Source: a virus (taxonomy: Duplodnaviria; Caudoviricetes). Taken from it: 64,000 bases of DNA. This document shows positions 4,961 to 53,370 of the stretch, piece after piece. The translations under genes and the position numbers were made by a program. The notes under the pieces were generated by a model. That model was not told the DNA's origin. It worked only from the letters and a program-made list of their open reading frames with translations, and searched no databases. Within the stretch, counting starts at the first letter, position 1, and the number at the start of each line of letters is the position of its first letter. The DNA lies in IMG/VR virus record IMGVR_UViG_3300031867_005677, positions 11,990 through 75,989 of that record; one strand, given 5' to 3'.

Positions 4961-5374
4961 ATGAAACAATTAAATAAATTTATACAAGAAAAATTAAAAA
5001 TCAATTCTAAAACCCAAATTAATAATACCGAAGAAGTTTGTAAATATATCTATAATAATTTATGGGGTATTACAGATGAAGATAAAGAAATGTATAGTGC
5101 TATTGAAAAATGGGTAAAAGATAATGATGTAAATGAAGTAATTCCAATTGCCGACCAAGAATCTTTAAATGATGCATCAGAATTTATAGATGATGATATT
5201 ATCAAACAATATAAATCGGATATGAAATCAGTTGAAGATTGTGAAAGTGAATTAGAAAAGGCAGAAAATATTTACCATCATAGTAGTAGAGCAGAAAATA
5301 TAGATATTATGTGTACGGATAATATGATTGCAATATTGGGTTGGTATGGTACTTTATATTGTGTTAAAAAATAA
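4961..5374 (+). CDS. Putative internal head protein with EKLKI tag; acidic unknown domain
   Basis: N-terminus MKQLNKFIQEKLKINSKTQIN. Confidence 0.6.
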   Translation: MKQLNKFIQEKLKINSKTQINNTEEVCKYIYNNLWGITDEDKEMYSAIEKWVKDNDVNEVIPIADQESLNDASEFIDDDIIKQYKSDMKSVEDCESELEKAENIYHHSSRAENIDIMCTDNMIAILGWYGTLYCVKK

Positions 5375-5386
5375 TGATTAATATAT

Positions 5387-7003
5387 ATGAACTTTTTAGA
5401 GTTTGTTTCAAAAAGAAAAGAAAATGAACAAAATAGAGTTATTATCAAAGAAGGATTTAAAAATTCTGATTTAGGTAAAGCACAAAAACTTATATTAAAG
5501 ATGTTAAGAAAAAATACGGGTGAAACTATAATTTCACTTGGTAATTTTGAACTTGAAATAGGTAAAGAAGATTGTACATCTGAATTGTTTGTATGTGCTA
5601 AATCTAAAAATCCTATTTGTTTTACATTGAATTGGCTTAATGATGGTAAATCATCCCAAATATATTCTATTTCTTTCTTTAAGAATATGAATGTATTTTT
5701 TGATGGTCGCGGTAAATCTGACTTGACTATTGAATCATTTGGTTGTTCTATTGCTTATCTTATACCTATTATCTCTTATATAGTTAATACTGGAGATTTT
5801 AATCTTCAAAAGAATGATGCTACTAAATTTGTAAAAGCTTTATTTGGTGCTAAAGTTCAAGAAGGAAAAATGTATGAATGTTATATTGGTGCATTAAAGT
5901 ACTATATTATTGAAAATGTTAAAGAATCATTAATAAAAGAAACATTCATGCAAAATATTAAAGAAGGTTCATATGAAGATTTGTTAAAGTGGAAAAAAGA
6001 GAAAATGGCAGCTGCTAAAGAAGCCGATTCTCATAAAAAAGATTCTCCTGAAGCTAACCGATTAAGTAAAGATTTATGGAAAGAATATGAAGAGATAAAG
6101 AATGCTATTAAAGGTGGAGCTTCATCAGTAGAAGAAGTACAATTAGCATTACAAAAATCAGTTAATGTAGTGGTTAAAAATCTTGAAGGTGCAAGTAAAA
6201 TAGAAGAAGAAATTAATAAAATAAGGAAAGATCCTGAACAAGTATTTAAAGAAATGCGTAAATATGTAAAGATGGTTATAAAAGGAATTACACCATCTGT
6301 AATATTATGTGGTGCTCCTGGTGTTGGTAAAACATTTAAAGTAAAACAAGAGCTTAAAGCCGCAGGTTATCATGAAGGACATAATCTTTGCACTATTAAA
6401 GGTAAATGTACCCCACGTGTTCTTTATACTACATTATTGGATTATAAGAAAAAAGGTGATATTGTAGTAATTGATGATGCCGATGGGTTAGTAGGTCCTA
6501 AAGCACCAGAAGATTGTATTAATATATTAAAAGCTGCTTTAGATTCAACAGAAGATGATGAAGGACGTTTAGTATCTTATGGAGTATCTGGTATTATTAG
6601 AGATGATGAAGGTATGGAATTACCTAAGAAGTTCTATTATAATGGTGGATGTATTGTTATAACTAATTATAATGCTGGACAATTAGATACTGCATTAAGA
6701 GGACGTTCATTTATACAAGATATTCATTTTACTGTAGAAGAAGTGTTACAAATTATCAAGAAACTTTTACCAGAACTTGATCCTGAACATCTTTCACCTA
6801 AAGCAAAAATGCAAGCATATGATTATCTTGTAAAACTTAATGAACAAAAATCTAAGATGGAAATATCATTACGTACATTTGGTATTTGTGCGAAGATATT
6901 TGAAGCTTGTAATGATGATCCGGATTTTGATGATGCTGATGCTGAATCAATGGTAGAAGAACAAATGAAATTACAAGCTGATCGTGGTGGTAAAAAATAT
7001 TAA
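5387..7003 (+). CDS. AAA+ ATPase with N-terminal extension
   Basis: Walker A GAPGVGKT, Walker B VVIDDAD, sensor ITN, arginine finger ALRGR. Confidence 0.85.
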   Translation: MNFLEFVSKRKENEQNRVIIKEGFKNSDLGKAQKLILKMLRKNTGETIISLGNFELEIGKEDCTSELFVCAKSKNPICFTLNWLNDGKSSQIYSISFFKNMNVFFDGRGKSDLTIESFGCSIAYLIPIISYIVNTGDFNLQKNDATKFVKALFGAKVQEGKMYECYIGALKYYIIENVKESLIKETFMQNIKEGSYEDLLKWKKEKMAAAKEADSHKKDSPEANRLSKDLWKEYEEIKNAIKGGASSVEEVQLALQKSVNVVVKNLEGASKIEEEINKIRKDPEQVFKEMRKYVKMVIKGITPSVILCGAPGVGKTFKVKQELKAAGYHEGHNLCTIKGKCTPRVLYTTLLDYKKKGDIVVIDDADGLVGPKAPEDCINILKAALDSTEDDEGRLVSYGVSGIIRDDEGMELPKKFYYNGGCIVITNYNAGQLDTALRGRSFIQDIHFTVEEVLQIIKKLLPELDPEHLSPKAKMQAYDYLVKLNEQKSKMEISLRTFGICAKIFEACNDDPDFDDADAESMVEEQMKLQADRGGKKY

Positions 7004-7021
7004 AATAATTAAATAATATAT

Positions 7022-7840
7022 ATGAAAAGTTTAATACAATATATTAATGAAAATATAATTAAAGAATCATTTGAATCTAATTCTTTATCTGAATTTATAT
7101 CTTTATCAGATAAAAAAGAATATGAAGATTATTTTAAATATGGTTTTAGAGTAATTTCTAAAATTACAGATACATATAATTTTAGTAAAAAACAAATAGC
7201 TAAAGGTATGAGTTTAGCTAATTGGAAAGAAGATTGGTTCTATTCAAAAGATAATAAAAAAGTATTTAATCAAGAAGAATTTTGTAATATTTTAAGATTA
7301 TCAGATAAAGACCTTAATGAAGCTAAATTAAAAGAAGTTGCAATTAAACAAAAAACGTGTATTTTCTTATTTACTGAAAATAATAACAGCAAAATAAATA
7401 AAATTATTGCTGCAATGATATTAAATCCAAAATATGGAAATGAAGCTGCAACTTATTTAAAAGAAATGGCTAAAGAAAAAGAAATAAGACAAGATAATAA
7501 ATCTAATAATGATAAATTAAGTTCAACTTGGAAAATTGATAGAGCAAATAAAGTAATTAAAGAATATAATAATAAAGCTTCTAAAGAACAAATTGATTTA
7601 TTAAATGAAACTGTAAAGAAATTAATGAAATATACCAATAGAGGTAAAACTGCTAAAGAAGAAGCTAAAGAATTTAATAATTCTAAATGGTATAGTGAAG
7701 AACAAGCTAATATAACTTATTATTTAATTACTTCCGAAACCGGTGAAGATTTTCTTAAAGTATTTAGTTGGACTGATAATTTAAATAATAAACAAAAAGA
7801 TTATTTATCTGAAATAGTAGAAAAATTAAAAGTAAAATAA
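7022..7840 (+). CDS. Hypothetical protein, putative capsid-targeted
   Basis: 272-aa ORF; N-terminus MKSLIQYINE..IKE. Confidence 0.55.
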   Translation: MKSLIQYINENIIKESFESNSLSEFISLSDKKEYEDYFKYGFRVISKITDTYNFSKKQIAKGMSLANWKEDWFYSKDNKKVFNQEEFCNILRLSDKDLNEAKLKEVAIKQKTCIFLFTENNNSKINKIIAAMILNPKYGNEAATYLKEMAKEKEIRQDNKSNNDKLSSTWKIDRANKVIKEYNNKASKEQIDLLNETVKKLMKYTNRGKTAKEEAKEFNNSKWYSEEQANITYYLITSETGEDFLKVFSWTDNLNNKQKDYLSEIVEKLKVK

Positions 7841-7853
7841 TAATATAAATAAT

Positions 7854-9053
7854 ATGAAAAGTTTATCTCAACAAGTTAATGAAGATTCTTATATTTCATT
7901 AGGTAATGTTTCAATGATTAATGAAGCATGGGGAGCAAAAAAACATTATGCAGATGAATTAGAAAAAATATTTGCAAATTATGAAAAAAAGAAAAATCCT
8001 AAACCTAAAAAGGGTCCATTTGGGAGAGGAGGATTTAGACCAGGTCATTCCCCAGAAGAAGTACTTGCAAAATATCCAATGGAAATATTAATTGATAAAG
8101 CTGGATATGAACCAAAAGAAATTTCTAAAGAAGTTTGGGGTCCTAAAGGAAGAACCGAAAAGAAAGAATTTAGTAAAAATGATTATGGTTATTTTATTGC
8201 ACAATTAATAGCTAGTGGAGAACTTAATAAAGAAAAAATGCTTAAATGGTGGAATGAATATGAAGATAAGATAGCCAAAGCAAAATGGCATGATCCAAAA
8301 TTTATAGCTAAACAAATTGACCCGGTAAAATGTTGGAATCCATATTATCCTAAAGATGATTCTATTGTTAATTCATTTGAAAAAAATCCAGCTAATATGT
8401 CTTATTATTTAAAGAGTGGAAATGGTTTATCTTATGATGAAAAAAAAGAATTAAGAGCTTTCTTAGAAGATCCAGCAAATCTTGAAGAATTAAAGGTGGC
8501 TATTAAAGGTGTTAAAAATTCAATTTTAAAAGCACGTCCTACATTTAAGACAGGTGCTATTAATCATCTTAAAGATATTATTAAAAATTGTGATTATTCT
8601 GGTGGTAATCTTGAAGATTTAATGGAAAAGGAATATCGAGATAGCCATAAATCATATTATCAGGGTGGTAATGATAGAGATTGTGAAGCATCTGCAATAA
8701 TTGGTCTTATTATGAAAGTTATTAATAAGATTTATGGATTTGAAGTTTGGTCATCAATTACATCTGATAAAGATGAATATGAAAATGAAATTATTAGTGC
8801 CCATATTAATGGTTTAAATAAAGAAGATCAAACATATGAACAATTTGTTGATGATGCAGATATTCTTAAATTTAAAATTAAGAAATTAGGTGTATCAAAG
8901 AAAAAAGAATCATCATCAGTTCATAATTCTTCATTTACATCAAATTATAATTATGATTTTGAAGTAATTTGTACTAAAGGAGATGAAGAGATATTTCATG
9001 AAACAATAACTGATGTGACAATTGGTTCATATTTCTTCTCTGGTGGATGGTAA
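7854..9053 (+). CDS. Hypothetical protein, putative capsid-targeted; paralog-like to 12626-13795
   Basis: N-terminus MKSLSQQVNE...MINE; both proteins end with a C-terminal ...FEVI. segment. Confidence 0.55.
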   Translation: MKSLSQQVNEDSYISLGNVSMINEAWGAKKHYADELEKIFANYEKKKNPKPKKGPFGRGGFRPGHSPEEVLAKYPMEILIDKAGYEPKEISKEVWGPKGRTEKKEFSKNDYGYFIAQLIASGELNKEKMLKWWNEYEDKIAKAKWHDPKFIAKQIDPVKCWNPYYPKDDSIVNSFEKNPANMSYYLKSGNGLSYDEKKELRAFLEDPANLEELKVAIKGVKNSILKARPTFKTGAINHLKDIIKNCDYSGGNLEDLMEKEYRDSHKSYYQGGNDRDCEASAIIGLIMKVINKIYGFEVWSSITSDKDEYENEIISAHINGLNKEDQTYEQFVDDADILKFKIKKLGVSKKKESSSVHNSSFTSNYNYDFEVICTKGDEEIFHETITDVTIGSYFFSGGW

Positions 9054-9078
9054 AATATTTGTGGATTAAATAATATAT

Positions 9079-9106
9079 AAAAAGACCAATCTTATTGGCC
9101 TTTTTT
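9079..9106 (+). terminator. Rho-independent terminator
   Basis: aagaccaat-ctt-attggcctt followed by a T run. Confidence 0.6.
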
Positions 9107-9127
9107 ATATGTGGTCATTTTAAGATT

Positions 9128-9140
9128 TATTTTTAATAAA
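9128..9140 (+). promoter_or_regulatory. Candidate late promoter TATTTTTAATAAA
   Basis: Exact copies at 9128, 10050 and 42252, each upstream of a + strand gene. Confidence 0.45.
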
Positions 9141-9197
9141 TAAAATATACAAAATTTAGCATAAAACTAATAAATGATTCAAAACATATAATATATT

Positions 9198-10013
9198 ATG
9201 GATTTTAAAGGAATATTTCAAGTATTGATAGATAATTATGGTTTATATGGTTTAGTGATAGCTATATGTTTAGTAGCTATTTGTGTTGCCATACCTGTAA
9301 TGCTTAACAAACAAAGTAAGAAAATGTCAAATGATTTTAACAAATTAGGAATAGATTTATCAAATGCATTACAAAAACAAAATGATGGATTAATTAATAA
9401 ATTATCAGAAACACAAGATAAATTATTAGAAAGTAATTTAAATATTATTAATAATCTATTAGATCAAAAAAATAAAATACATGGCACAGGATTAAATTTA
9501 AGAGACCAAGTATCAATACCAATACAAAATAAAATCAATCATTTAAAAGATTTATATAGGGCAAATAGAGTTGGCGTGATAGAGTTCCATAATTCATTAG
9601 TAAATCTTAATGGTCTACCATTTTTATGGTATGATTTGATTTATGAAAGTATTATGAAAGGTACTAAATCAATTTCAATTGAAACTAAAAATATGCCATT
9701 TAATATTCTTACTCCAATTTTATTAGGAATTCAAAATGGTCGTGCAAAAGTATTTGATAATAAAGAAGTAGAAAAATTCTATAATCAATCATCTGTACTT
9801 TATGAATTCTGTGAAAGATTTGATGTACATGATCTTGTGATATGCCCATTATTAAATAGTGATAATGAATTAGTTGGATTACTTTCATTAGAATATTCTG
9901 ATAAATATCCTTTAAATCCAGAATTATTAGATATAAATGATATTGAGGATGAAGCAAAAATAATATCGGCTTTATTAGAATTGAATAAACAAAAAAATAA
10001 TGAAAATAAATAA
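9198..10013 (+). CDS. Putative holin (T4 gp t-like: single N-terminal TM plus GAF-like domain)
   Basis: TM segment YGLYGLVIAICLVAICVAIP, coiled coil, then RVGVIEFHN...LPFLWYDLIYE and LVGLLSLEY GAF-like strands. Confidence 0.55.
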   Translation: MDFKGIFQVLIDNYGLYGLVIAICLVAICVAIPVMLNKQSKKMSNDFNKLGIDLSNALQKQNDGLINKLSETQDKLLESNLNIINNLLDQKNKIHGTGLNLRDQVSIPIQNKINHLKDLYRANRVGVIEFHNSLVNLNGLPFLWYDLIYESIMKGTKSISIETKNMPFNILTPILLGIQNGRAKVFDNKEVEKFYNQSSVLYEFCERFDVHDLVICPLLNSDNELVGLLSLEYSDKYPLNPELLDINDIEDEAKIISALLELNKQKNNENK

Positions 10014-10017
10014 ACTT

Positions 10018-10050
10018 AAGGATCTAGTCAACTAGGTCCTTTTTATTTTT
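10018..10050 (+). terminator. Rho-independent terminator
   Basis: aaggatctag-tcaa-ctaggtcctt plus T tract, just after the stop at 10013. Confidence 0.8.
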
Positions 10051-10062
10051 ATTTTTAATAAA
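10050..10062 (+). promoter_or_regulatory. Candidate late promoter TATTTTTAATAAA
   Basis: Exact motif copy ending 17 nt before the ATG at 10080. Confidence 0.45.
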
Positions 10063-10079
10063 ATTATTTGTTTATTTAA

Positions 10080-10487
10080 ATGAAAAGTTTAGATACTTTT
10101 ATATGTGAAAATAATGAACAATCTTCATTAGGTAAGAAAATTCTTAAAGTAATAGATAATAATATTACACAAGCAATTATTAAAAGAACTGAAAATTGGG
10201 ATGCTAACAAATTTGAATGGTCACGTGATCCAATGTTCTTATTAATAACACCAGAAAAAACTAAAAAGGATAGTGAAGAAAAATTTAGAGATCTTGAATG
10301 GGCAAGAGATAAATACATTGATGCTTGGAGAGATAAAGTTAAAGGAACTATAGATAATTATAATGTTAAAAATGATGATGGTGATTATGAATATTGTGTA
10401 TTAGGTATATTTGTGGATAGACAATTCTTCCCGATATCTTCATTAGATAATATGAATAAAATCATAGATTTATTAATTCAAAAATAA
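10080..10487 (+). CDS. Hypothetical protein, putative capsid-targeted
   Basis: N-terminus MKSLDTFICE. Confidence 0.55.
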   Translation: MKSLDTFICENNEQSSLGKKILKVIDNNITQAIIKRTENWDANKFEWSRDPMFLLITPEKTKKDSEEKFRDLEWARDKYIDAWRDKVKGTIDNYNVKNDDGDYEYCVLGIFVDRQFFPISSLDNMNKIIDLLIQK

Positions 10488-10500
10488 TAGAGGCAATATT

Positions 10501-10932
10501 ATGGAAAGTTTAGAGAATATAAAGAACAATAATCAAGATTTATATGAGAAATTACAAAAATATAATTGTAAGATGACATATAATAATAAGGTTATCTATG
10601 AAGGTATTTATAAAGAAGATATTGATTATGGAAAATATAATCAATCAAATATTGTTTGTGAATTTAATATAAATGATAATAAGGTATTATTACTTCTTAA
10701 GAATAATGAAAATATAGATAAACTTAATAAACTTTTTGAAAATAAACAATTTAATGATATTTATAATGATGCTAAATTATTTAATAAAGCAATGAATTTA
10801 GCAAATAAACTCCCATTATATAATTTTGATAAAGAATTATTTGAAAATAATATCAATAAAGATATTAAGAAATATGGAATTAATTTCCAAAAAATTTATG
10901 AAAATTTAAACATCAATGAATACAATAAATAA
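10501..10932 (+). CDS. Hypothetical protein
   Basis: 143-aa ORF in a tight operon. Confidence 0.55.
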   Translation: MESLENIKNNNQDLYEKLQKYNCKMTYNNKVIYEGIYKEDIDYGKYNQSNIVCEFNINDNKVLLLLKNNENIDKLNKLFENKQFNDIYNDAKLFNKAMNLANKLPLYNFDKELFENNINKDIKKYGINFQKIYENLNINEYNK

Positions 10933-11287
10933 TTTTATAATAGAAAAACTTAAGGTTAATTCTAAATCAAAAATTCATGATGAAGAATTTTATGAAAAGA
11001 CTTCTACCGATTTATTAGTTGAGATTCAAAATGAAGTTGATAAAGATGGAGAATATCATACTTATAGTTTTAAAGATGGCCAAAAGAAATTCAAGAAAGG
11101 ATTTTTGACATTCAATGAAGATGGTGAATATTTAACTATTATAGCTTTTAATACAGCTGAAGATTTTGCTAATATGCTTGGAGCAGATGAAGATGCATAC
11201 AAACAATATGAAAATGTTAAAGTTGGTGGTTATATAGATTGGGGCGAAAATGATGGTTCAACTTCACAAATATTAAGAATTTGGTAA
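10916..11287 (+). CDS. Putative internal head protein with EKLKV tag
   Basis: MNTINNFIIEKLKVNSKSKIH; acidic remainder. Confidence 0.6.
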   Translation: MNTINNFIIEKLKVNSKSKIHDEEFYEKTSTDLLVEIQNEVDKDGEYHTYSFKDGQKKFKKGFLTFNEDGEYLTIIAFNTAEDFANMLGADEDAYKQYENVKVGGYIDWGENDGSTSQILRIW

Positions 11288-11288
11288 T

Positions 11289-11648
11289 ATGAAAGATATA
11301 GATTATTTTATACAAGAAAAGCTTAAAGTTAATTCTAAATCAAAAATTAATAAAAATGAACCTTTAGAAGCAGATGAAATTGAAGGTCCTGAAACTCCTG
11401 GTAAAGATTATTTTGATGAAGATGTAGTTATTATAGGTTGGCCATTTAAAGATAAAAATGACCAAAATTATAAAAAAACAAAAGAATATATTAGAAAAGA
11501 AGGATATTCAATTTATAATGATTTAGAAGATATCGAAGATAAAGATATGTGGGATTATTTCTGTTATGCACAACATCCTAATGATGGATTTGAAATAAAT
11601 TGTTATGTATATGGTTCTGAAGGAGTAGAAGGTTATAGTGAAAAATAA
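11289..11648 (+). CDS. Putative internal head protein with EKLKV tag
   Basis: MKDIDYFIQEKLKVNSKSKIN; strongly acidic remainder. Confidence 0.6.
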   Translation: MKDIDYFIQEKLKVNSKSKINKNEPLEADEIEGPETPGKDYFDEDVVIIGWPFKDKNDQNYKKTKEYIRKEGYSIYNDLEDIEDKDMWDYFCYAQHPNDGFEINCYVYGSEGVEGYSEK

Positions 11649-11662
11649 TATTAATTTATAAT

Positions 11663-11857
11663 ATGAAAGATATAGTTACAAAAATATATGAATCTAATGA
11701 ATGGAATCCTTCATTAAATTCTCATAAACAAGCATATAATAATTTTATCAAATGGTATGATAAATGCCTTAAACATATGAATAAAGAAGAAATACTTGAT
11801 TTAATTGAATCTGCTATAAAAGAGATTGAAGATGATTCATTAGATATAATTAAATAA
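11663..11857 (+). CDS. Small hypothetical protein, putative capsid-targeted
   Basis: MKDIVTKIYES. Confidence 0.5.
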   Translation: MKDIVTKIYESNEWNPSLNSHKQAYNNFIKWYDKCLKHMNKEEILDLIESAIKEIEDDSLDIIK

Positions 11858-11858
11858 T

Positions 11859-12302
11859 ATGAAAAAAATAAATGAATATATTTTAGAATCTAATAAATCT
11901 GTTAATATATTAATAGATAGAGAAAAAGTTAATAAATATAATTTTTCTCGTAAAGAATATGCATTAATTAAATATTTAATTGATAATAATGATTCTTTAA
12001 GATCAAGAATTTATGTAGTAGAAGGAAATAAAAAATCAAATATTGATGAAATCGAAGAATATAGAGATTTAATTCCTGAAGACGAAAGAGGTATATTGTT
12101 TGTTTATCAAGAATCTACTAGAATGGGAGCACCTAAAGAAGCTGTATTTTATAGTATTTCTAAAATAAAAGAAACTAAAGAAAAAGAAACTTTTGTATAT
12201 TCTTATCATACAGAAGGTAAATCTAAATATAAGTCTGCAATTATAACTATAACCGGTAATAATTCAGAATTAACTTTATCTGAAACAGATATTAAATATT
12301 AA
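11859..12302 (+). CDS. Hypothetical protein, putative capsid-targeted
   Basis: MKKINEYILES. Confidence 0.55.
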   Translation: MKKINEYILESNKSVNILIDREKVNKYNFSRKEYALIKYLIDNNDSLRSRIYVVEGNKKSNIDEIEEYRDLIPEDERGILFVYQESTRMGAPKEAVFYSISKIKETKEKETFVYSYHTEGKSKYKSAIITITGNNSELTLSETDIKY

Positions 12303-12322
12303 AGAATATAATATTAATAATT

Positions 12323-12607
12323 ATGGAGAATATAGATAAGTTTATTAATAATGATCAAATAACGGAAGAATTAACATATGATGATGTAATTCAAAAGTTA
12401 CAAGAGGCAAAAGAAGCTGGTACACCTATTGATGAAGGTATATTAGGTGCTATTGGAGGAGCTCTTCTTGGAGCATCATTTGGTCCTAAATTAGGTAATG
12501 CAATATGTGGGGCATTAGGTATTGATCCTAAAGGAGCTTTAGGTAGTCTTATGACTTCACGATTAGTTTTAGGATCTATTGGTGCTAAAATGGGATGGAA
12601 ATTATAA
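12323..12607 (+). CDS. Glycine-zipper membrane-active peptide precursor
   Basis: Acidic 38-aa N-terminus ending PIDE, followed by GILGAIGGALLGASFG...GALGSL...LGSIGAKMG. Confidence 0.6.
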   Translation: MENIDKFINNDQITEELTYDDVIQKLQEAKEAGTPIDEGILGAIGGALLGASFGPKLGNAICGALGIDPKGALGSLMTSRLVLGSIGAKMGWKL

Positions 12608-12625
12608 TATATTAAATACATAAAT

Positions 12626-13795
12626 ATGAAAAGTTTATTTAATTATTTTTTAGAATCAAAAGAAGATGGTAAATATTTAGATTTACCACAATCAATGAAT
12701 AAACCATTTTTCTATCCAGGCATACCTAAAAGTACAAAAGATGAAATGAAGAATAAATATAAAGAATATGAAGAGTCAGTAATTAAGATAAATACAGAGA
12801 ATTTTGAAATTCTTGTTGATAAACTTAAAACTGCAATGGCTTCTAAAAAAGGACATAATAACTTTATTCTTAATGCTCAAAATTGTACATTTGATAATTT
12901 CTATGGAAAAGATGAAAATGGTAATAAAGATTTCTTTGATTTTGTAGAAAAGGCTACAAAAGAAGCAAGAATTGCATTAGAAACAGATGATATAAAAGCT
13001 GCAAGTTTTACAAAAGCACGTCAACCAGAAAAAAGAAATTCATGGGATAAAGATGTTACATTATTTTGGTGGGATTCTCAAGGGTTTACATTTTCTATTT
13101 ATCTTGCATTAAGTGTTATTGCACAAGCTTATAATGTTAATATCCCTAAATTTAATGATAAATTTAATATTTTAAAAACTGATACCGTCGATAGTAAATA
13201 TCAACAAATGTGGGATCAAACATCTAAACCTAGCAATGATGAGAAAAGAGAAGCAAAATCAACTAAAGTTTATAAAAAGGCTGAAGAAGAATATGAAAAG
13301 GATTCTAAGAAAATAAAGAAATTACGTGAAGCATTTAGAAAAACAGATTTATATAAAGATATTATTGCAATATTAGATAAAGTTGAAGATGACTTAGAGG
13401 CAACAGAACAAAACTATAAGAAATGGGAAAAGATATTTGCAGAAAAAATAAAGAAAGATGATGAAGCTAAAAAACTAGCTGATGCTATTGAAAAGATTAA
13501 AGATGATGTTCAAAAGGTCTTAGAAAAATCATTCGGTAGTTATTCTCGAATATCTTGGGGTGTTGATAATCTTTATAAATTAGCTGCTAAAGCTTATTTA
13601 GAATCTGACAATAAAATGCCCGAAATTAAAGAATTATCTCATAATACTGGTAGTTGGCTTTCAGGAATGCATACAACATGTGAATTTGAAGTTATTGGGG
13701 CCAATGGAACATCTTATGGAAAAGTTAAATTACAAGATAAAGGATTAGATGGAGATGATGGCAAACCTGTAGATGGATTTGGCCCTTGGGATTAA
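12626..13795 (+). CDS. Hypothetical protein, putative capsid-targeted
   Basis: MKSLFNYFLES; K/E-rich helical middle. Confidence 0.55.
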   Translation: MKSLFNYFLESKEDGKYLDLPQSMNKPFFYPGIPKSTKDEMKNKYKEYEESVIKINTENFEILVDKLKTAMASKKGHNNFILNAQNCTFDNFYGKDENGNKDFFDFVEKATKEARIALETDDIKAASFTKARQPEKRNSWDKDVTLFWWDSQGFTFSIYLALSVIAQAYNVNIPKFNDKFNILKTDTVDSKYQQMWDQTSKPSNDEKREAKSTKVYKKAEEEYEKDSKKIKKLREAFRKTDLYKDIIAILDKVEDDLEATEQNYKKWEKIFAEKIKKDDEAKKLADAIEKIKDDVQKVLEKSFGSYSRISWGVDNLYKLAAKAYLESDNKMPEIKELSHNTGSWLSGMHTTCEFEVIGANGTSYGKVKLQDKGLDGDDGKPVDGFGPWD

Positions 13796-13858
13796 CTCTA
13801 GTTAAATTTCAAAAAAAATTACATAAATATTTATTCATAATAAAAATATTTATTATTA

Positions 13859-13866
13859 TATAAATA
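13859..13866 (+). promoter_or_regulatory. T4-type late promoter box TATAAATA
   Basis: Exact TATAAATA ending 53 nt before the ATG at 13920; a chance match is possible in AT-rich DNA. Confidence 0.4.
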
Positions 13867-13919
13867 ATTATGTTAATGCATAATTTATTATTAATAGAAA
13901 AATACCAAATAAAATAGAT

Positions 13920-15404
13920 ATGAACGTAAAATTACTTAAAGACCTGGATTTCGTAGCTAAGATTAATGAATGTCAAGCAGTTTCTGAAGCAGGTAAAGAA
14001 TTAGTAAAGAACTACAAGGCATATTTGTTTACAAATCCTGCATCTTGTGGTATCGTAAATGGCTTCGTACAAGAAGCACAAAAATATAGCTTCGATACAG
14101 GTTTAGCTAGTATTTTAGAGTCTGTATTAGGTTTTATAAAGGAAAATAATATTTCTTGGCAATTAGCAAGTGCTTGTGAATCAATTGAAAATAACAAGTC
14201 AACATATAATTATATTGCTAAGACAGGTGTAGAACAAGTAAGTAAACTTCTTGAAATGGATGAATCACAAGTTGTTTCTTATATTAAGAGTGGAGCTCTT
14301 AAAGGTGTTCAATATATTCCTGAATTCCGCCAAGTATGTAAACAAGTATTCAAATCGGCAATTACAGAAGCAATGGCTCCTAATTATACATTAGTTAATC
14401 CTATTTCTTATGTATATGAAAATGAAGAAGGAGATAAATATTTTGAAGTATTACATAAAACATATAAGACAAATAAAGAACAAACTAAAGTTTCTGAAGC
14501 TGTATGTGATGATGTAAAATTCAGAAATATCAATGCATTACTTGAATCTTTCACAAATGATGAAGGTACTCTTTCTTATGCTTGGAAATCTGGTTTTGAT
14601 GGTTGTCAAGTTGTAATTAAAGAAGCTGAAGATAAAACAACTCTTACATTCACTAAAGGACAAAAGATTAATGAAACATTTGAAGATGCAACAAAATTCA
14701 ATGAATATTGTGATACTCTTTCTAAAGCATTAGGTATGAATGAAAGATTACAATTCATGAATATTACAAATGCAATTGGTCAAGTATTTGAAGCTATGGA
14801 TCATGTATTCATTATGGATTGTGCAAAAGTTCTTAGAACATCTACCGGAGTTATTTGTACAATTGTTGAAAGTAAAGATAATGTTACCATGAGTGTTAAT
14901 GCTTCTATTCATAATGGTACATATACAAAGGATTTTGATTATATGACAGAAGCTCTTAAAGAAGTAACAGCTGTATCTGGTATTGATCTTAAGCATATTT
15001 ATGAAGAAAGAATTAATGAAGATGTTAAGAAACAAAACCCAGATGAATATAAGAATATTCAAGAAGAATTAGCTGCTCAAAAATCTCAACAAATGGATGC
15101 TCGTAAGAAGAAAATTGCTACATTAGCTGAACAATATAAGAATGATCCTGCTATTATTGCTGTTCTTAATAAAGCCGCTCGTGATTTAGCTCTTTTAGAA
15201 AATTCAGATAAGACTCACGAAGATGCAATGAAGAAACAACAAGAAGAAGCAGAAAAGAAAGCTAAAGAAGCTCAAGCTAAACAAGAGGAAGAAGCTAAGA
15301 AAGCTGAAGAAGAAGCTGCTAAGAAAGCTGAAGAAGAAAAGAAAAAACAAGAAGAAGCTGCTAAGAAAGCTGAAGAAGAAGCAAAGAAAGCGGCTCAAAA
15401 ATAA
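13920..15404 (+). CDS. Putative prohead core/scaffold protein
   Basis: Many (I/L/V)xE sites (KINE, ILES, ITEA, LLES, IVES, RINE); helical; K/E/A-rich tail. Confidence 0.4.
   Translation: MNVKLLKDLDFVAKINECQAVSEAGKELVKNYKAYLFTNPASCGIVNGFVQEAQKYSFDTGLASILESVLGFIKENNISWQLASACESIENNKSTYNYIAKTGVEQVSKLLEMDESQVVSYIKSGALKGVQYIPEFRQVCKQVFKSAITEAMAPNYTLVNPISYVYENEEGDKYFEVLHKTYKTNKEQTKVSEAVCDDVKFRNINALLESFTNDEGTLSYAWKSGFDGCQVVIKEAEDKTTLTFTKGQKINETFEDATKFNEYCDTLSKALGMNERLQFMNITNAIGQVFEAMDHVFIMDCAKVLRTSTGVICTIVESKDNVTMSVNASIHNGTYTKDFDYMTEALKEVTAVSGIDLKHIYEERINEDVKKQNPDEYKNIQEELAAQKSQQMDARKKKIATLAEQYKNDPAIIAVLNKAARDLALLENSDKTHEDAMKKQQEEAEKKAKEAQAKQEEEAKKAEEEAAKKAEEEKKKQEEAAKKAEEEAKKAAQK
15240..15400 (+). 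repeat. Low-complexity tandem repeat (aagaaagctgaagaagaa; AKKAEEE)
   Basis: Several near-identical units in the C-terminal coding region. Confidence 0.85.
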
Positions 15405-15436
15405 AATAATTAGCTACAGATAAATTTTAATATAAT

Positions 15437-15466
15437 AAAATGGAAAGCTTAAGCTTTCCATTTTTT
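15437..15466. terminator. Bidirectional terminator between convergent blocks
   Basis: aaaatggaaagc-ttaa-gctttccatttt is a perfect inverted repeat. Confidence 0.9.
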
Positions 15467-15494
15467 ATTTAAATATTGAATATATTTTCAAGTT

Positions 15495-15980: not shown

Positions 15981-15992
15981 AACATAATTTAT

Positions 15993-43170: not shown

Positions 43171-43180
43171 TATATGCAAT

Positions 43181-43209
43181 AATGGAGAACTCGTAAGTTC
43201 TCCATTTTT
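43181..43209. terminator. Terminator between convergent genes
   Basis: aatggagaact-cgta-agttctccatt plus T run. Confidence 0.85.
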
Positions 43210-43215
43210 ATTTAA

Positions 43216-48816: not shown

Positions 48817-48834
48817 TAAATTTACATATGTTTA

Positions 48835-48885
48835 TTTAATAAAAATAAGACTATAAAATTATTTTTAAATATAAATTGATAATAA
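48835..48885. promoter_or_regulatory. Divergent pair of candidate late-promoter motifs
   Basis: TATTTTTATTAAA on - (48835-48847) and TATTTTTAAATATAAA on + (48870-48885). Confidence 0.35.
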
Positions 48886-48891
48886 TATTTT

Positions 48892-49806
48892 ATGAAAAGC
48901 TTCAAACAAACATATTTTGTTGAAAATGTTAATACTATAAATGGTTTTGTTATTCTAAAACCAGAATTTCTAGATCATGAAGAAGACTTTCTAAAACTTC
49001 TTAAAAATAATGGATGGGATATTATTCAAAAACAAAAAAGAACTCTATCTAATGATGAAGCAGCAGAACTTTATAAAATGCATAAGGATAAAGATTTCTA
49101 TAAGCCTTTATGCAAATATATGAGTTCTGGTGATTGTCTTTGTTGTATGTGTCATAAAGATTGTAATGATCCTATTAAAGATATGGATGCTATTAAAGAC
49201 AAGGTTCGTAAGACATGGGGAAAAGATGAAATGAAAAATGGTATGCATTCATCAGATAGCTTAGATAATGTCAATCGTGAATCTAAACTTATATTTGAAA
49301 AGAAAGTTGTAGAATCTGAAAGTGATGATTTGCAAATAAAAATGGAAGCATCAGAAATCAAAACATTAGTAGAAATGTTAAAGAATGCATTAGCTGAAGA
49401 AATATTAGCTTGGTATCATTATACAATATGTGCTCCATTCTTGACAGGTAAAATGCGTCCGGATGTGGAGAAACTATTTATAGAAACTGCTAAAGATGAA
49501 TTTGAAGATCATGCTTGTTGGTTAATGGAAAGACTTCGTCAATTGGGAGAAGATCCAGGAGAATTATTAGATCCAAATCAGATGAATACTATTGCAAAAC
49601 ATAAATATATCATGCCTTCATTTGATACTAAGAAAGCTATTCAAAATAATATTGAAGCGGAAAAGGGAGCTATAGAGACTTATACAGAATTAGAAACATT
49701 CACTAAAGACAAAGATATAGTAACACATGCTAAAATAGAAGAGATATTAGCTGATGAACAAGAACATCTTAAATTATTAAATAAATTAGCTGAAGATATA
49801 AAATGA
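48892..49806 (+). CDS. ndk: Nucleoside diphosphate kinase fused to a ferritin-like (bacterioferritin/DPSL-type) domain; capsid-targeting N-terminus
   Basis: NDK: ILKPE, FYKPLCKYMSSG, KNGMHSSDS. Ferritin: ALAEE..AWYHY, DE..DH..WL.ERL.QLG, EAEKGAI..Y, ILADEQEH. N-terminus MKSFKQTYFVE. Confidence 0.85.
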   Translation: MKSFKQTYFVENVNTINGFVILKPEFLDHEEDFLKLLKNNGWDIIQKQKRTLSNDEAAELYKMHKDKDFYKPLCKYMSSGDCLCCMCHKDCNDPIKDMDAIKDKVRKTWGKDEMKNGMHSSDSLDNVNRESKLIFEKKVVESESDDLQIKMEASEIKTLVEMLKNALAEEILAWYHYTICAPFLTGKMRPDVEKLFIETAKDEFEDHACWLMERLRQLGEDPGELLDPNQMNTIAKHKYIMPSFDTKKAIQNNIEAEKGAIETYTELETFTKDKDIVTHAKIEEILADEQEHLKLLNKLAEDIK

Positions 49807-50336
49807 AAAATCTAAAAGATATAATTATTGAGAAGTTAAAAATCAATTCTAATTCTAAAGTTAATAATAAATTTGACCCAGAAAGATTAACTGATCATAG
49901 ATTTGTTTTATATGATTCTCAATCTTATGAAAATGAAGATGATGAAGCGGTTGATTGGAAAGATTGTGAAGATTCTTTAATGTCTTATAATGACCAAGCC
50001 GCTGGTTTTATTACATGTGATAACCCAATATCTAAAATTAAAAATTATAGTAAAGATATAAGTTTAATTGATGAGGATTTATTGTCATTAAGAGAAAGAA
50101 TTATTACCGGTAAAGATCTTGGTTATGAAATTAGATATGAATATGGGCATTTAGAATTTGATTGTATTAATTCTGGTTCTAGACGTACATTCTATATTTA
50201 TGGATTACCCAAAAATGCTTATGATAAAATAATTACTTGGTGGGAATCTCCAGATGAATTAGAAGGAGACACTGATGAAGAAAAATTAGCTTTCTTATTT
50301 GAAGAAGGAAATATAATAGCAATTGAAGATAAATGA
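49803..50336 (+). CDS. Putative internal head protein with EKLKI tag; acidic domain
   Basis: MKNLKDIIIEKLKINSNSKVN. Confidence 0.6.
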   Translation: MKNLKDIIIEKLKINSNSKVNNKFDPERLTDHRFVLYDSQSYENEDDEAVDWKDCEDSLMSYNDQAAGFITCDNPISKIKNYSKDISLIDEDLLSLRERIITGKDLGYEIRYEYGHLEFDCINSGSRRTFYIYGLPKNAYDKIITWWESPDELEGDTDEEKLAFLFEEGNIIAIEDK

Positions 50337-51208
50337 AAACTTTAAAAGAAATTATTTTAATATCTAAAAAGCCATCATCTATAGATAATTATATACAAGA
50401 AAAACTCAAAATTGGATCAAAGACAAAGGTAAATATGTATACTTGTCAACCAAAAGATAAAAATGAACTTAAAAGTATAATAAAAGAACGTCTAGATAAA
50501 GATAAGAATGCTGACTTAAATGATATAGATGTATCTAAAATAAATGATATGTCTACTTTATTTAATCAATTAGATCCTCACAATATAGACTTAAGTGAAT
50601 GGGATGTATCTAATGTTATTGATATGAATGAAATGTTTTTAGGATGTGATAATTTTAATTGTGATTTATCTAAATGGGATATATCAAAAGTCAAATGTAT
50701 GATAAGTATGTTTAGATACTGTGAAAATTTTAATGGTGATATATCTAAATGGGATGTATCTAATGTTACTGATATGAGTAATATATTTAATAATTGTGAA
50801 AAATTTAATTGTGATTTATCTAAGTGGGATGTATCAAATGTTACTAATATGAAATGTATGTTTTTCCATTGTAATAATTTCAATTTTGACTTAAGTGAAT
50901 GGGATGTATCTAATGTTACTGATATGAATGAAATGTTTTTTGGGTGTAATAATTTTAATTCAGATTTAAGTGAATGGGATGTATCTAATGTTACTAATAT
51001 GAGTGATATGTTTGGTAATTGTGAAAAATTTAATTGTGATTTATCTAAGTGGGATGTATCAAATGTTACTAATATGAAATGTATGTTTTATAATTGTAAT
51101 AATTTTAATTCTGACTTAAGTAATTGGGATGTTTCAAATGTTAAAAATATGTATTTTATGTTTGATGGGTGTAAATCACTAAAAAATAAACCAAGTTGGT
51201 ACAAATGA
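50333..51208 (+). CDS. DUF285/BspA-type repeat protein with EKLKI tag
   Basis: IQEKLKIGSKTKVN; eight 25-aa WDVSNV..M..MF..C..FN.DLS. units. Confidence 0.85.
   Translation: MKTLKEIILISKKPSSIDNYIQEKLKIGSKTKVNMYTCQPKDKNELKSIIKERLDKDKNADLNDIDVSKINDMSTLFNQLDPHNIDLSEWDVSNVIDMNEMFLGCDNFNCDLSKWDISKVKCMISMFRYCENFNGDISKWDVSNVTDMSNIFNNCEKFNCDLSKWDVSNVTNMKCMFFHCNNFNFDLSEWDVSNVTDMNEMFFGCNNFNSDLSEWDVSNVTNMSDMFGNCEKFNCDLSKWDVSNVTNMKCMFYNCNNFNSDLSNWDVSNVKNMYFMFDGCKSLKNKPSWYK
50590..51175 (+). repeat. 75-bp tandem repeats encoding DUF285 units
   Basis: tgggat(g/a)t starts at 50600, 50675, 50750 ... 51125. Confidence 0.9.
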
Positions 51209-51669
51209 AAACTTTAAAAGAAATAATCATTGAAAAATTAAAAATTTCTTCTAATTCTAAAGTTATTGGTGAATTAGATAATTTTGATAATTTTGCCAAA
51301 GAATATGATGGTGAATATTCTGAAGGAGTAATTTTATTTAATGAAGATAGTCTTTTTTATAAGAAAGCTATAGATATTATATCAAAAAGATATAGTGGAT
51401 TTAAATCAAGATTAATTTGTGATAGAATAGCAGGTAATTCAATGACAAAAAAATATAGATATTATGTTTCAATATTCACATCACAAAGAATAAATGTATC
51501 ATGTGTTGACAGAGGTCAGGCAAAATCAGTATCATTTATGATGATTCAAAATATGGAATCCGATAAACAAATTAAATTAACTTATGGTGTTAACGATCCT
51601 GATGAATCTATAGAGAAAACCTATGTAAATATAATACTTAATAATATCATCAATGGAAAATTTGATTAA
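51205..51669 (+). CDS. Putative internal head protein with EKLKI tag
   Basis: Start reassigned to MKTLKEIIIEKLKISSNSKVI (ATGA coupling). Confidence 0.6.
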   Translation: MKTLKEIIIEKLKISSNSKVIGELDNFDNFAKEYDGEYSEGVILFNEDSLFYKKAIDIISKRYSGFKSRLICDRIAGNSMTKKYRYYVSIFTSQRINVSCVDRGQAKSVSFMMIQNMESDKQIKLTYGVNDPDESIEKTYVNIILNNIINGKFD

Positions 51670-52147
51670 TATAATTGAAAAATTAAAAATTAGTTCAAAA
51701 ACAAAAGTATCTACAGAAATAGAAATGGAAACAATAGATGATTTATGTAAAAAATATAATTGTGAATTCCATCATGATTCAACTAATGATACTTTTAATT
51801 ATAATTATTTAACTCATGATAATAAACAAATAACACTTATAATTGAAGATATAATAAAATATTCATGGACAGCTTGGAAACAATTAATTCAAAATACCGA
51901 AAAATATATTGATAAATTTAATGATAACCAAAAATATCAATTAAAGATTAGAAAAAACAATGATGCTAAATTAATTGTTATTGATTGTGAAGGAAAATTA
52001 AATAATAAATATCACTTATTTGGATCTATAACATTAGCTACAAATAACAATATTTCAGAAACTATTGATAAAAAGAATGATACAAAAAATGTAGAAATGT
52101 TATTAGTTAAAATTGCGGATTATATATTAAGTATTTGGGATAAATAA
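51653..52147 (+). CDS. Putative internal head protein with EKLKI tag
   Basis: MENLINIIEKLKISSKTKVS. Confidence 0.6.
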   Translation: MENLINIIEKLKISSKTKVSTEIEMETIDDLCKKYNCEFHHDSTNDTFNYNYLTHDNKQITLIIEDIIKYSWTAWKQLIQNTEKYIDKFNDNQKYQLKIRKNNDAKLIVIDCEGKLNNKYHLFGSITLATNNNISETIDKKNDTKNVEMLLVKIADYILSIWDK

Positions 52148-52148
52148 T

Positions 52149-52841
52149 ATGAAAACATTAAAAGAAATTATACAAGAAAAACTCAAAATTGGTTCTAAAT
52201 CAAAAATTAATCAATATCATTATTTTCCTAAAAATTATGATGAACTAAAAAATATAATTGATAAACTTATTGCTGAACGTGGAAATGAAGCTGATTTAAA
52301 TGATATTGATATATCAAAAATATATAAATTAAATAGCTTATTTACCGGTAAAGATTTTAATGGTGATATATCAGAATGGGACACAAGCAATGTGGAAAGT
52401 ATAGCAGCAATATTTCAACGTTCATCATTTAATGGTGATTTATCCAAATGGGATGTATCAAAAGTTAAAAATATGTCATGGGCTTTTGCAGGATCTAAAT
52501 TTAATAATAATAGTATTTGTAAATGGGACACAAGCAATGTGGAAAATATGGAGGCAATGTTTAGTGCAGCAGTAGAATTTAATCAAGATTTATCTGAATG
52601 GAATGTTAGTAAGGTTGAAGACATGAATATGTTATTTAGAAAAACATCTTTTAATAAAGACATATCTAATTGGGATGTTAGTAAAGTTAAGATTATGCAT
52701 GATATGTTTGCCGATTGCCCATTTAACCACAAAATAGATAATTGGAAAGTTAATAATGATTGTTCATTATATGATATGTTTTATAAATGTCCACTAAAAA
52801 AACATCCACCTAAATGGTATAAAGAAGATGAAGAAGATTAA
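52149..52841 (+). CDS. DUF285/BspA-type repeat protein with EKLKI tag
   Basis: MKTLKEIIQEKLKIGSKSKIN; ADLNDIDISK; WD(T/V)S.V repeats. Confidence 0.85.
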   Translation: MKTLKEIIQEKLKIGSKSKINQYHYFPKNYDELKNIIDKLIAERGNEADLNDIDISKIYKLNSLFTGKDFNGDISEWDTSNVESIAAIFQRSSFNGDLSKWDVSKVKNMSWAFAGSKFNNNSICKWDTSNVENMEAMFSAAVEFNQDLSEWNVSKVEDMNMLFRKTSFNKDISNWDVSKVKIMHDMFADCPFNHKIDNWKVNNDCSLYDMFYKCPLKKHPPKWYKEDEED

Positions 52842-53370
52842 TAATTTTATAATAGAAAAACTCAAAATTGGTTCTAAATCAAAAGTAAATGAGAAAATAA
52901 AACCTGAAGATGCTGCTGCTCTTAAAAGAGAAGTTCTTAAAAAGATAATTAATAAAGAAACTGATTTTAATGATATAGATATTTCGGCAGTAAAGGATTT
53001 ATCTCATTTATTTGAAGACCAAGATATTTCTGAAATTGATATATCTGAATGGGATGTATCTCATGTTGAATCTATGAGAGCTATGTTTCAAAATTGTAGG
53101 TATCTTAAAACATGTGGAGATTTAGGAAAATGGGATGTTGGAAATGTTTTAGATATGTCTTGGATGTTCAATGGGTGTCAATGTTTAAAAGATATTGGTG
53201 ATTTACAAAATTGGGAGATTAATGACACGAAAATGAAATGTGCATTTCAAGGATGTAAAAGATTAAAAAGTTTAGGATATATAAAACATTGGAGGCCAAA
53301 AGAACCTAATTATGATATATTTACTGGTACTGATATACCTTATAAAGATTTACCATTTAAAAAAATATAA
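52828..53370 (+). CDS. DUF285/BspA-type repeat protein with EKLKI tag
   Basis: MKKINNFIIEKLKIGSKSKVN; DFNDIDIS; WDVSHVESM, WDVGNVLDM. Confidence 0.8.
   Translation: MKKINNFIIEKLKIGSKSKVNEKIKPEDAAALKREVLKKIINKETDFNDIDISAVKDLSHLFEDQDISEIDISEWDVSHVESMRAMFQNCRYLKTCGDLGKWDVGNVLDMSWMFNGCQCLKDIGDLQNWEINDTKMKCAFQGCKRLKSLGYIKHWRPKEPNYDIFTGTDIPYKDLPFKKI

What the first reader, a model, noticed from the sequence alone, without database searches (positions are those of the whole stretch)
4961..52890. Shared N-terminal tag xxE-KLK(I/V)xS(K/N)(S/T)K(I/V)N on nine cargo proteins: candidate modular packaging/injection system
Seen: ORFs at 4961, 10916, 11289, 49803, 50333, 51205, 51653, 52149 and 52828 carry MKx(L/I)xx(F/I)IxE followed by KLK(I/V)(N/G/S)S(K/N)(S/T)K(I/V)x. 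They then diverge into acidic unknown domains or DUF285 repeats. The tag is also conserved in DNA (gaaaaactcaaaattggttctaaatcaaaa at ~52178 and ~52856). Known: the T4 internal-protein capsid-targeting sequence is MKTYQEFIAE, removed by the gp21 protease after (I/L)xE, and T4 IPI* inhibits the GmrSD nuclease. Inference: cleavage would expose the same basic ~10-mer on each cargo, a possible second signal (DNA tethering or ejection order). The DNA copies could also act as recombination anchors for cassette shuffling. I do not know a described system with this extension.
Basis: partly seen in the sequence, partly recalled or inferred. Interest (0 to 1): 0.85.

Follow-up and report, generated by a model that had tools for sequence, protein, structure and literature searches.

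The report
Extended capsid-targeting-like leader on megaphage proteins
Nine small, unrelated proteins of an uncultivated giant phage begin with the same 21-residue tag, whose first ten residues look like the phage T4 signal that loads proteins into the capsid and whose second half is a conserved, undescribed add-on, so the phage probably packages and delivers a large, shuffling set of proteins, though no packaging or cleavage has been measured.

Summary
Exactly nine ORFs in the 76-kb record carry the tag, always at the N-terminus. There are 14 more in three related IMG/VR contigs and about 200 protein clusters in public metagenomes.

The tag is selected at protein level: invariant Leu and Ser use several codon families. 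AlphaFold models show a short helix plus a flexible linker in front of folded cargo. The cargo falls into at least 13 unrelated families and is mostly acidic, and Pfam names only DUF285.

Residues 1-10 conserve the positions that matter in the T4 capsid targeting sequence: 4 and 7 for targeting, 8 and 10 for cutting. The window contig lacks the head genes. Both near-complete relatives encode a T4 gp21-type protease fused to a scaffold, next to a T4-type capsid gene. In a further, more distant contig of the family, a gene with a shorter form of the tag (EKLKI core) lies between protease and capsid genes.

The extension (KLKIxSKSKI here, KFRLSKDNL in a relative) is as constrained as the head. 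Its role is untested.

Strain comparisons show cassette gain, loss and chimeras with breakpoints inside or at the leader.

Verdict: a new variant of a known kind. The scan noted similar leaders before on other DNA. Packaging and cleavage are inferred, not shown.

The parts
4961..5374 (+). Tagged ORF (137 aa); tag 4961-5023; acidic cargo of unknown family. It is inserted between the baseplate wedge gene and the AAA ATPase gene, which are adjacent in relatives G005, G006 and G007.
10916..11287 (+). Tagged ORF (123 aa); tag 10916-10978. The cargo homologue in G004 has a head-only leader. In close relative L024 it is fused in frame to the upstream gene, so the tag is internal.
11289..11648 (+). 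Tagged ORF (119 aa); tag 11289-11351; acidic cargo.
49803..50336 (+). Tagged ORF (177 aa); tag 49803-49865. The cargo folds as an alpha/beta domain with no PDB match.
50333..51208 (+). Tagged DUF285 protein (291 aa) with a doubled leader: partial head 50333-50359, full unit 50372-50434.
51205..51669 (+). Tagged ORF (154 aa); tag 51205-51267; orthologue in G003 is 84% identical.
51653..52147 (+). Tagged ORF (164 aa); 20-residue tag 51653-51712. In G003 this tag is joined to the cargo of the next gene (chimera).
52149..52841 (+). Tagged DUF285 protein (230 aa); tag 52149-52211. AF2 model: helix 4-11, low-confidence linker 11-20, LRR-like solenoid from residue 21.
52828..53370 (+). Tagged DUF285 protein (180 aa); tag 52828-52890.
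7022..13795 (+). Block of ORFs that includes those with the 10-residue head only: 7022, 7854, 10080, 11663, 11859, 12626. They have the same head as the tag but no KLKI extension. Cassette content differs from close relative L024.
3255..4937 (+). Baseplate wedge protein (context; used to find relatives).
5387..7003 (+). AAA ATPase (phrog_1250, function unknown), conserved directly after the wedge gene in relatives (context).
48892..49806 (+). NDK-ferritin fusion heading the tagged array, with a leader-like N-terminus. The G004 NDK carries a head-only leader.

Best explanation
The 21-residue tag is a two-part leader. Residues 1-10 (M-K-x-L/I-x-x-F/Y/I-I-x-E) act like the T4 capsid targeting sequence. 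They would dock the protein to the prohead core and end in the I-x-E site of a T4 gp21-type protease that is fused to the scaffold in this phage family. Residues 11-21 (K-L-K-I/V-x-S-K/N-S/T-K-I/V-N) are a lineage-specific flexible module under residue-by-residue selection. It most likely forms the primed side of the cleavage site and a spacer that lets any folded cargo be presented. It would stay as the basic N-terminus of the mature, mostly acidic cargo. The leader marks a large, fast-changing set of small accessory proteins (DUF285 LRR-like binders and many unknown folds) for packaging with the DNA and probably for delivery into the host. The conserved leader DNA and its upstream spacer also serve as crossover points for gaining, losing and re-pairing cargo cassettes.

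Shown: the tag, its distribution, protein-level selection, modular architecture, a head-gene link in relatives, and breakpoints at leaders. Inferred: docking, cleavage after E10, packaging, ejection, and the role of the extension.
For: Specificity:
- There are nine N-terminal matches and none elsewhere in six frames.
- In the complete relative G004 the head motif is on 83 of 529 ORFs, against 0.7 expected.

Protein-level selection:
- In the window lineage, invariant Leu12 uses TTA/CTT/CTC/CTA and Ser16 uses TCT/TCA/AGT.
- In 44 G004 paralogues, invariant Arg13 uses AGA/AGG/CGT. Tag identity is 85% against 59% for cargo.

Modularity:
- Cargo falls in at least 13 unrelated families.
- 201 clusters match the tag profile, nearly all at residue 1.
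- Only DUF285 (29 of 150) is recognised by Pfam, and the tag hits no family.
- AF2 puts a helix at 4-11 or 4-16, a low-confidence linker, and then a confident domain.

Likeness to the T4 CTS:
- The T4 CTS is MKTYQEFIAE (PMC8442874).
- Mutagenesis maps targeting to residues 4 and 7 and processing to 8 and 10 (PMC9026906). These are the conserved positions here.

Protease and head genes:
- G004 (97% complete) and G007 (98%) each have a Peptidase_S77 domain above cut-off in a 537-565-aa ORF. Its C-terminal part carries W-I/V-x-E-E-F-A-P repeats. A Gp23-family capsid gene follows.
- About 25 head-only genes lie directly upstream in G004.
- In contig 3300012979_000140, six genes bearing the head plus an EK-L-K/R-I/V core (a different linker follows, not xSKSKI) lie about 5.6-8.7 kb upstream of the protease gene. 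A seventh lies between the protease and capsid genes.

Same pathway for both leader classes:
- The cargo of 10916 has a head-only leader in G004.

Recombination:
- There is a chimeric junction inside the tag in G003.
- The 7022 cassette indel is bounded by spacer-plus-leader repeats.
Against: - No protease, scaffold or capsid gene lies on the window's own 76-kb contig, or on the three contigs with the exact tag. The link therefore rests on relatives.
- No proteomic or biochemical data exist for any tagged protein.
- P1' is Lys in the extended class but mostly Ser in the head-only class, so the extended class might be cut differently or not at all.
- Leaders on 16% of ORFs, with more than 40 LRR paralogues in one genome, is far more than the T4 precedent.
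- DUF285/BspA repeats are usually surface proteins.
- T4 internal proteins are basic, whereas this cargo is acidic.
- The distant cultured relatives PAU and PTm1, and the uncultured Lak-A1, lack the extended tag. A reading of ORF starts around the PAU and PTm1 baseplate genes showed no such leader either.
Confidence: 0.6

Rival explanations
1. The tag is a docking peptide that fixes a library of small binder domains (LRR-like DUF285 and others) to the outside of the virion, on the capsid, tail or fibres, much as short N-terminal anchors hold fibres or decoration proteins. It is not a signal for internal packaging.
For: DUF285/BspA repeats are typical surface or adhesion modules, and the model is an LRR-like solenoid. 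Distant cultured relatives (PAU, PTm1) carry capsid decoration or head-fibre proteins according to their records. Three tagged genes lie in the baseplate-side block.
Against: The conserved positions match the T4 internal-protein leader, not any known anchor (PMC9026906). Enzymes such as NDK and a HAD phosphatase carry the head in relatives. The unit also works internally or duplicated, which fits a processing site better than a terminal anchor. Tagged genes sit by the protease and capsid genes, not the fibre genes, in L107.
Confidence: 0.12
2. The tag is an intracellular handle that is not packaged. A shared peptide would be recognised by one phage or host hub, such as the conserved AAA ATPase, a host AAA+ protease or a modifying enzyme. 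The variable domains would then bring targets to that hub, like F-box or PRANC repeat families of large eukaryotic viruses, or the tag would be that enzyme's modification site.
For: The paralogue expansion of a binder domain with a short invariant motif resembles adaptor families. An AAA ATPase gene adjoins 4961. An invariant Ser and Lys-rich stretch could be a modification site. An earlier scan note (e1-127136) found a shared phage tag better explained by a partner enzyme.
Against: 4961 is an insertion next to an ATPase that belongs to the baseplate block in relatives without it. I saw no enzyme recurring beside the tagged arrays I read in the window, G004 and L107, though this was not counted systematically. 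The head-only form clusters upstream of the protease and capsid genes. This rival does not explain the T4-like I-x-E pattern.
Confidence: 0.13
3. The shared N-terminus has no targeting role. It would be the ancestral start of one paralogue family, spread by gene conversion, or a DNA/RNA-level element for translation start, promoter function or recombination.
For: Identical 30-nt copies occur in neighbouring genes. Breakpoints at leaders show DNA-level exchange. AAA-rich starts favour translation in SD-poor hosts (own knowledge).
Against: Synonymous and six-fold codon switching at invariant residues shows selection on the peptide. The tag heads at least 13 unrelated cargo families. It is kept when internal. 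The tag stays 85% identical while cargo drifts to 59%.
Confidence: 0.05

Closest known systems
[quoted passage not shown]
   Same: Both are 10-residue N-terminal leaders starting M-K with F/Y-I-x-E at 7-10. Conservation falls on positions 4, 7, 8 and 10. The leader is shared by otherwise unrelated small proteins. A gp21-family protease and a gp23-family capsid protein are present in the phage family. The cargo loci are variable.
   Different: Here a further 11 residues are conserved and under selection. P1' is Lys. Cargo is mostly acidic, not basic. Tens of tagged genes occur per genome (83 of 529 ORFs in G004) against three or four in T4. LRR-like repeat proteins dominate in relatives. The protease is fused to a repeat-bearing scaffold. 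Nothing has been shown experimentally.
Propeptides of giant-phage head and ejection proteins cut by S80/S77-type proteases (phiKZ gp175, SPN3US gp245; for example the SPN3US paralogues gp53 and gp54 with identical 15-residue N-termini; PMC5694885)
   Same: These are giant phages with dozens of head proteins. Cleavage is after Glu in a short motif. Diverged paralogues share an N-terminal propeptide.
   Different: Their motif is S/A/G-x-E. The propeptides are long and not a portable 10-mer. They are not spread over many unrelated families.
DUF285 / BspA-like (PARCEL) repeat protein expansions, for example 38 DUF285 proteins in Aureococcus virus (PMC10720644) and a jumbo Vibrio phage (PMC7765460)
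   Same: The same Pfam family (PF03382) is expanded as paralogue arrays in a large virus genome.
   Different: Here the repeats are short (150-300 aa) and carry a capsid-targeting-like leader instead of a secretion or lipoprotein signal.

Membership tests
T4-type capsid targeting sequence (CTS) leader | About 10-residue leader at the extreme N-terminus of the protein | tested here: met
   All nine window tags and nearly all of the 150 listed profile hits (of 201 at E<=0.001) start at residue 1.
T4-type capsid targeting sequence (CTS) leader | Determinants at residues 4 and 7 (targeting) and 8 and 10 (processing, I/L-x-E), with other positions free (PMC9026906) | tested here: met
   Alignments A1 and A3: I8 and E10 are invariant or nearly so, L/I4 and F/Y/I7 are conserved, and positions 3, 5, 6 and 9 are variable.
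T4-type capsid targeting sequence (CTS) leader | The same genome encodes a gp21-type (Peptidase_S77) prohead protease | tested here: inconclusive
   There is none on the window's 76-kb fragment or on the three fragments with the exact tag. It is present above cut-off in both near-complete relatives, and on contig 3300012979_000140 together with EKLKI-core-tagged genes.
T4-type capsid targeting sequence (CTS) leader | Leader shared by otherwise unrelated small proteins | tested here: met
   At least 13 cargo families show no detectable similarity to each other. 121 of 150 representatives have no Pfam family at E<=0.001 or only a single sporadic weak hit.
T4-type capsid targeting sequence (CTS) leader | Tagged proteins are inside the capsid and the leader is cut off in mature virions | not testable with these tools
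   There is no cultured member and no proteome.
T4-type capsid targeting sequence (CTS) leader | The leader alone suffices to package a foreign protein | not testable with these tools
   This needs a packaging experiment.
DUF285 (PF03382) repeat proteins | Pfam match above the gathering score | tested here: met
   50333 scores 308.7 bits, 52149 scores 159.4 bits and 52828 scores 71.4 bits, against a cut-off of 25.
eCIS/PVC N-terminal cargo-loading signal with Pvc15-type ATPase | Cargo genes follow a contractile-injection operon without head genes, and are loaded by a dedicated AAA+ ATPase | tested here: not met
   The family has T4-type capsid and prohead protease genes, and a homologue of the PTm1 portal is present in G004. 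The ATPase is a conserved baseplate-block gene also present where no tagged gene adjoins it.

The most novel reading that the evidence does not exclude
The 11-residue extension is a second, lineage-specific address. After the CTS-like head is cut off, it would stay on the cargo as a basic handle that co-evolves with one partner (scaffold repeats, DNA or portal). It would sort a diversifying library of LRR-like binders and acidic proteins for DNA-coupled, ordered ejection. That would be a programmable two-signal protein-delivery code used by a whole clade of gut and rumen megaphages.
Probability: 0.2. Interest if true: 0.8.

Novelty: new variant of a known kind. Interest (0 to 1): 0.62.

Why it matters
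If the reading holds, a large and abundant clade of gut and rumen megaphages (over 2,200 protease-scaffold homologues, on contigs up to 474 kb) labels its injected proteome with a readable sequence tag. The set of proteins delivered with the DNA could then be listed from sequence alone. These proteins are likely early host-takeover and anti-defence factors, most of them of unknown fold. The extension and the duplicated or internal units would give new information on how T4-type prohead proteases and cores recognise cargo. The cassette exchange at leaders shows how such an arsenal diversifies. The tag could also serve as a portable packaging signal for engineering.

Tried and rejected
- tblastn of the 24-residue tag against cultured phages found nothing, probably because the query is too short or was filtered.
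- The tag pattern is absent from PAU, PTm1, pT24, Lak-A1 and LR756500, and from G004-G007 in its exact form.
- A k-mer search for a shared promoter upstream of tagged genes in G004 recovered only the conserved C-terminal coding sequence of the preceding paralogue.
- I looked for co-variation between the extension and the scaffold repeats W-I/V-x-E-E-F-A-P. The repeats are nearly the same in the 120 family members examined, so this gives no test.
- ESM Atlas look-ups of 4961 and 49803 gave nothing usable.
- Foldseek against the PDB gave only weak LRR rows for 52149 and nothing for 49803.
- The genome search could not reach the ENA contigs that hold the closest relatives, including a 364-kb contig with the 4961 orthologue.
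- An eCIS-type loading signal was considered and rejected (see membership test).
- Signal peptide and lipoprotein readings were rejected by reading the tag, which has no hydrophobic stretch and no Cys.
Full report
**What the window is.** The window is 64 kb of a 76-kb IMG/VR virus record with 25% G+C that CheckV rates 27% complete. It encodes a baseplate wedge protein (phrog_219) and helicases. Their nearest named relatives are Sphingomonas phage PAU, Tenacibaculum phages PTm1 and pT24, and the Lak megaphages, at 24-40% identity. Closer uncultivated relatives found through the wedge protein include two near-complete genomes. G004 is 410 kb and 97% complete, with 57% identity. G007 is 376 kb and 98% complete. 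The window is largely collinear with G004 positions 184-229 kb, and shared proteins are mostly 40-88% identical. One close relative (L024) comes from a sample labelled STEW19, which I take from memory to be a rumen metagenome set.

**The observation.**
- A back-translated DNA pattern gives 6 hits against 0.00 in shuffles.
- Details to correct: 51205 is an ATG inside a listed TTG ORF, 51653 has a 9-residue head, and 50333 carries a partial extra head before the full unit.
- The same 10-residue head without the extension is on 7022, 7854, 10080, 11663, 11859 and 12626, and on no minus-strand gene.

**Distribution.**
- The exact tag occurs on 14 more ORFs in three other IMG/VR fragments.
- A profile of 23 tags, searched against 1.84 billion representative proteins, finds 201 clusters at E<=0.001. 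Nearly all match from residue 1, and lengths of the 150 listed are 36-319 aa.
- A looser DNA pattern finds further contigs where the head plus E-K-L-K-I/V is followed by other linkers, such as N-K-D-S or S-K-x-T. One 29.5-kb contig has 20 profile hits.
- G005 uses K-L-Q-I-G-S-x-T-K-L. G004 uses K-F-R-L-S-K-D-N-L on 44 genes.
- PAU, PTm1, pT24, Lak-A1 and LR756500 have none.

**The tag is a peptide signal, not a DNA or RNA element.**
- Invariant Leu12 is encoded by TTA, CTT, CTC and CTA.
- Invariant Ser16 is encoded by TCT, TCA and AGT.
- In G004, invariant Arg13 uses AGA, AGG and CGT, and Phe12 uses both codons.
- G004 tags are 85% identical while the attached cargo is 59% identical.
- The extension is therefore as constrained as the head, which argues against a passive linker.

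**The tag is modular.**
- With the tag removed, the 23 proteins fall into at least 13 families with no detectable similarity.
- Of 150 representatives, 29 have DUF285, and the rest have no Pfam family at E<=0.001 apart from five single sporadic weak hits. No Pfam or PHROG model covers the tag.
- AlphaFold2 models of 52149 (pLDDT 92.6) and 49803 (86.4) show a short N-terminal helix, a low-confidence stretch over residues 10-22, and then a confident domain.
- Cargo is acidic: median pI is 5.15, against 6.3 for other small ORFs.

**Comparison with T4.**
- The T4 CTS is MKTYQEFIAE (PMC8442874).
- It attaches internal proteins to the prohead core and is removed by gp21, which cuts after Glu (PMC5694885).
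- Suppressor mutagenesis mapped targeting to residues 4 and 7 and processing to residues 8 and 10 (PMC9026906).
- The diverse internal proteins of T-even phages share only the CTS (PMC3012670).
- In my alignments the conserved head positions are M1, K2, L/I4, F/Y/I7, I8 and E10, while positions 3, 5, 6 and 9 vary.

**Protease and head genes.**
- The window's contig and the three contigs with the exact tag have no Peptidase_S77 match.
- G004 and G007 each have one above the curated cut-off (46.8 and 45.9 bits against 27), in ORFs of 565 and 537 aa. The C-terminal halves carry an acidic stretch, a coiled coil and six to eight W-I/V-x-E-E-F-A-P repeats.
- A Gp23-family capsid gene follows directly.
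- This protease-scaffold family has over 2,200 homologues on contigs up to 474 kb. Cultured relatives annotate it as prohead core scaffolding protein and protease.
- In G004, 83 of 529 ORFs carry the head (0.7 expected), and about 25 head-only genes lie directly upstream of the protease gene.
- Contig 3300012979_000140, whose protease-scaffold is about 52% identical to G004's, gives the most direct link available. Six genes bearing the head plus an EK-L-K/R-I/V core lie about 5.6-8.7 kb upstream of the protease-scaffold gene. A seventh (110 aa) lies between the protease-scaffold gene and the capsid gene. Their linker after the core differs from the window's xSKSKI.

**The two leader classes belong together.**
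- The cargo of 10916 has a head-only leader in G004.
- The unit F-I-x-E-K-L-K-I occurs duplicated in nine clusters and after a first head in 50333 and in three G004 genes.
- In L024 the orthologues of 10501 and 10916 are one reading frame, with I-Q-E-K-L-K-I-N-S-K-S-K-I inside it.
- A unit that is kept when internal or repeated fits a processing or recognition site.

**Recombination.**
- G003 gene 1568 equals the upstream region and tag of 51653 joined to the cargo of 52149, with the switch inside the 3' half of the tag.
- Against L024 (92% nucleotide identity in the best-conserved flanking blocks), the 7022 cassette is an indel bounded by repeats of the spacer plus ATGAAAAGTTTA.
- In the same comparison the 11663 cassette is replaced and 12626 is absent.

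**What remains inferred.** Docking to the core, cleavage after E10, packaging, ejection and the function of the extension have not been measured. Points against the reading:
- P1' is Lys in the extended class but mostly Ser in the head-only class.
- The number of tagged genes is far larger than in T4.
- DUF285 repeats are usually surface modules.

The rivals are an external docking peptide, an intracellular hub or enzyme-recognition tag, and a non-functional family N-terminus. I rate them at 0.12, 0.13 and 0.05.

**Earlier notes of this scan.** These notes describe the same kind of leader on other DNA (e1-1066390, e1-4715349, e1-3862018) and DUF285 arrays in a rumen jumbo phage (e1-5755384). 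They are AI notes, not independent evidence. One (e1-127136) warns that a shared phage tag can instead be an enzyme's recognition site. I saw no recurrent partner enzyme beside the arrays I read, but did not count this systematically.

Noticed in passing
L082:2910-4607 (G004 82910-84607); L023:1423-3036 (G007): The prohead protease is fused to a scaffold-like C-terminal half. That half has an acidic low-complexity stretch, a coiled coil and six to eight W-I/V-x-E-E-F-A-P repeats, each holding an I/V-x-E motif. The repeats are nearly the same in the 120 family members examined.
   Followed up: partly
window 48892-49806; G004 199928-200335: The window has an NDK-ferritin fusion with a leader-like N-terminus heading the tagged array. 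In G004 the NDK is alone and carries a head-only leader. A HAD phosphatase (PNK-like) also carries the head in G004 and L107, which suggests packaged enzymes.
   Followed up: partly
L024:14732-15505 versus window 10501-11287: In a 92%-identical relative, the untagged gene and the tagged gene are one frame with the tag unit internal. This is either a polyprotein-like arrangement or a frameshift in one of the assemblies.
   Followed up: partly
G004 whole genome (L078-L098): 44 genes carry the strict K-F-R-L/I-S extension, and a looser pattern gives 47. By their N-terminal consensus most look like DUF285 paralogues. They lie in eight or more arrays on both strands. Leaders of either class are on 16% of all ORFs.
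   Followed up: partly
L018:11684-11854; L020:17615-17803; L021:2943-3116: Small head-tagged proteins share a motif A/T-T-P-x-N-T-x-G-M-G-N/D-V after the leader. I know of no family for it.
   Followed up: no
window 5387-7003: An AAA ATPase (phrog_1250, function unknown) follows the baseplate wedge gene directly in G005, G006 and G007. In the window, 4961 is inserted between them.
   Followed up: partly
window 13920-15404: A conserved 494-aa protein has a C-terminal Lys/Glu/Ala-rich tail of about 60 residues. There are no family hits except a weak tape-measure PHROG. It is present at the same place in all relatives.
   Followed up: no
G004 84744-86540; L107:12108-13520: The capsid proteins share I-H-E-I-H-E near residue 36-41, a possible propeptide cut site of the I-x-E type.
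   Followed up: no
L060, L065, L070 (IMGVR_UViG_3300031993_000442): A 29.5-kb contig has 20 profile hits to the tag, so most of its genes are tagged small ORFs in tandem.
   Followed up: partly
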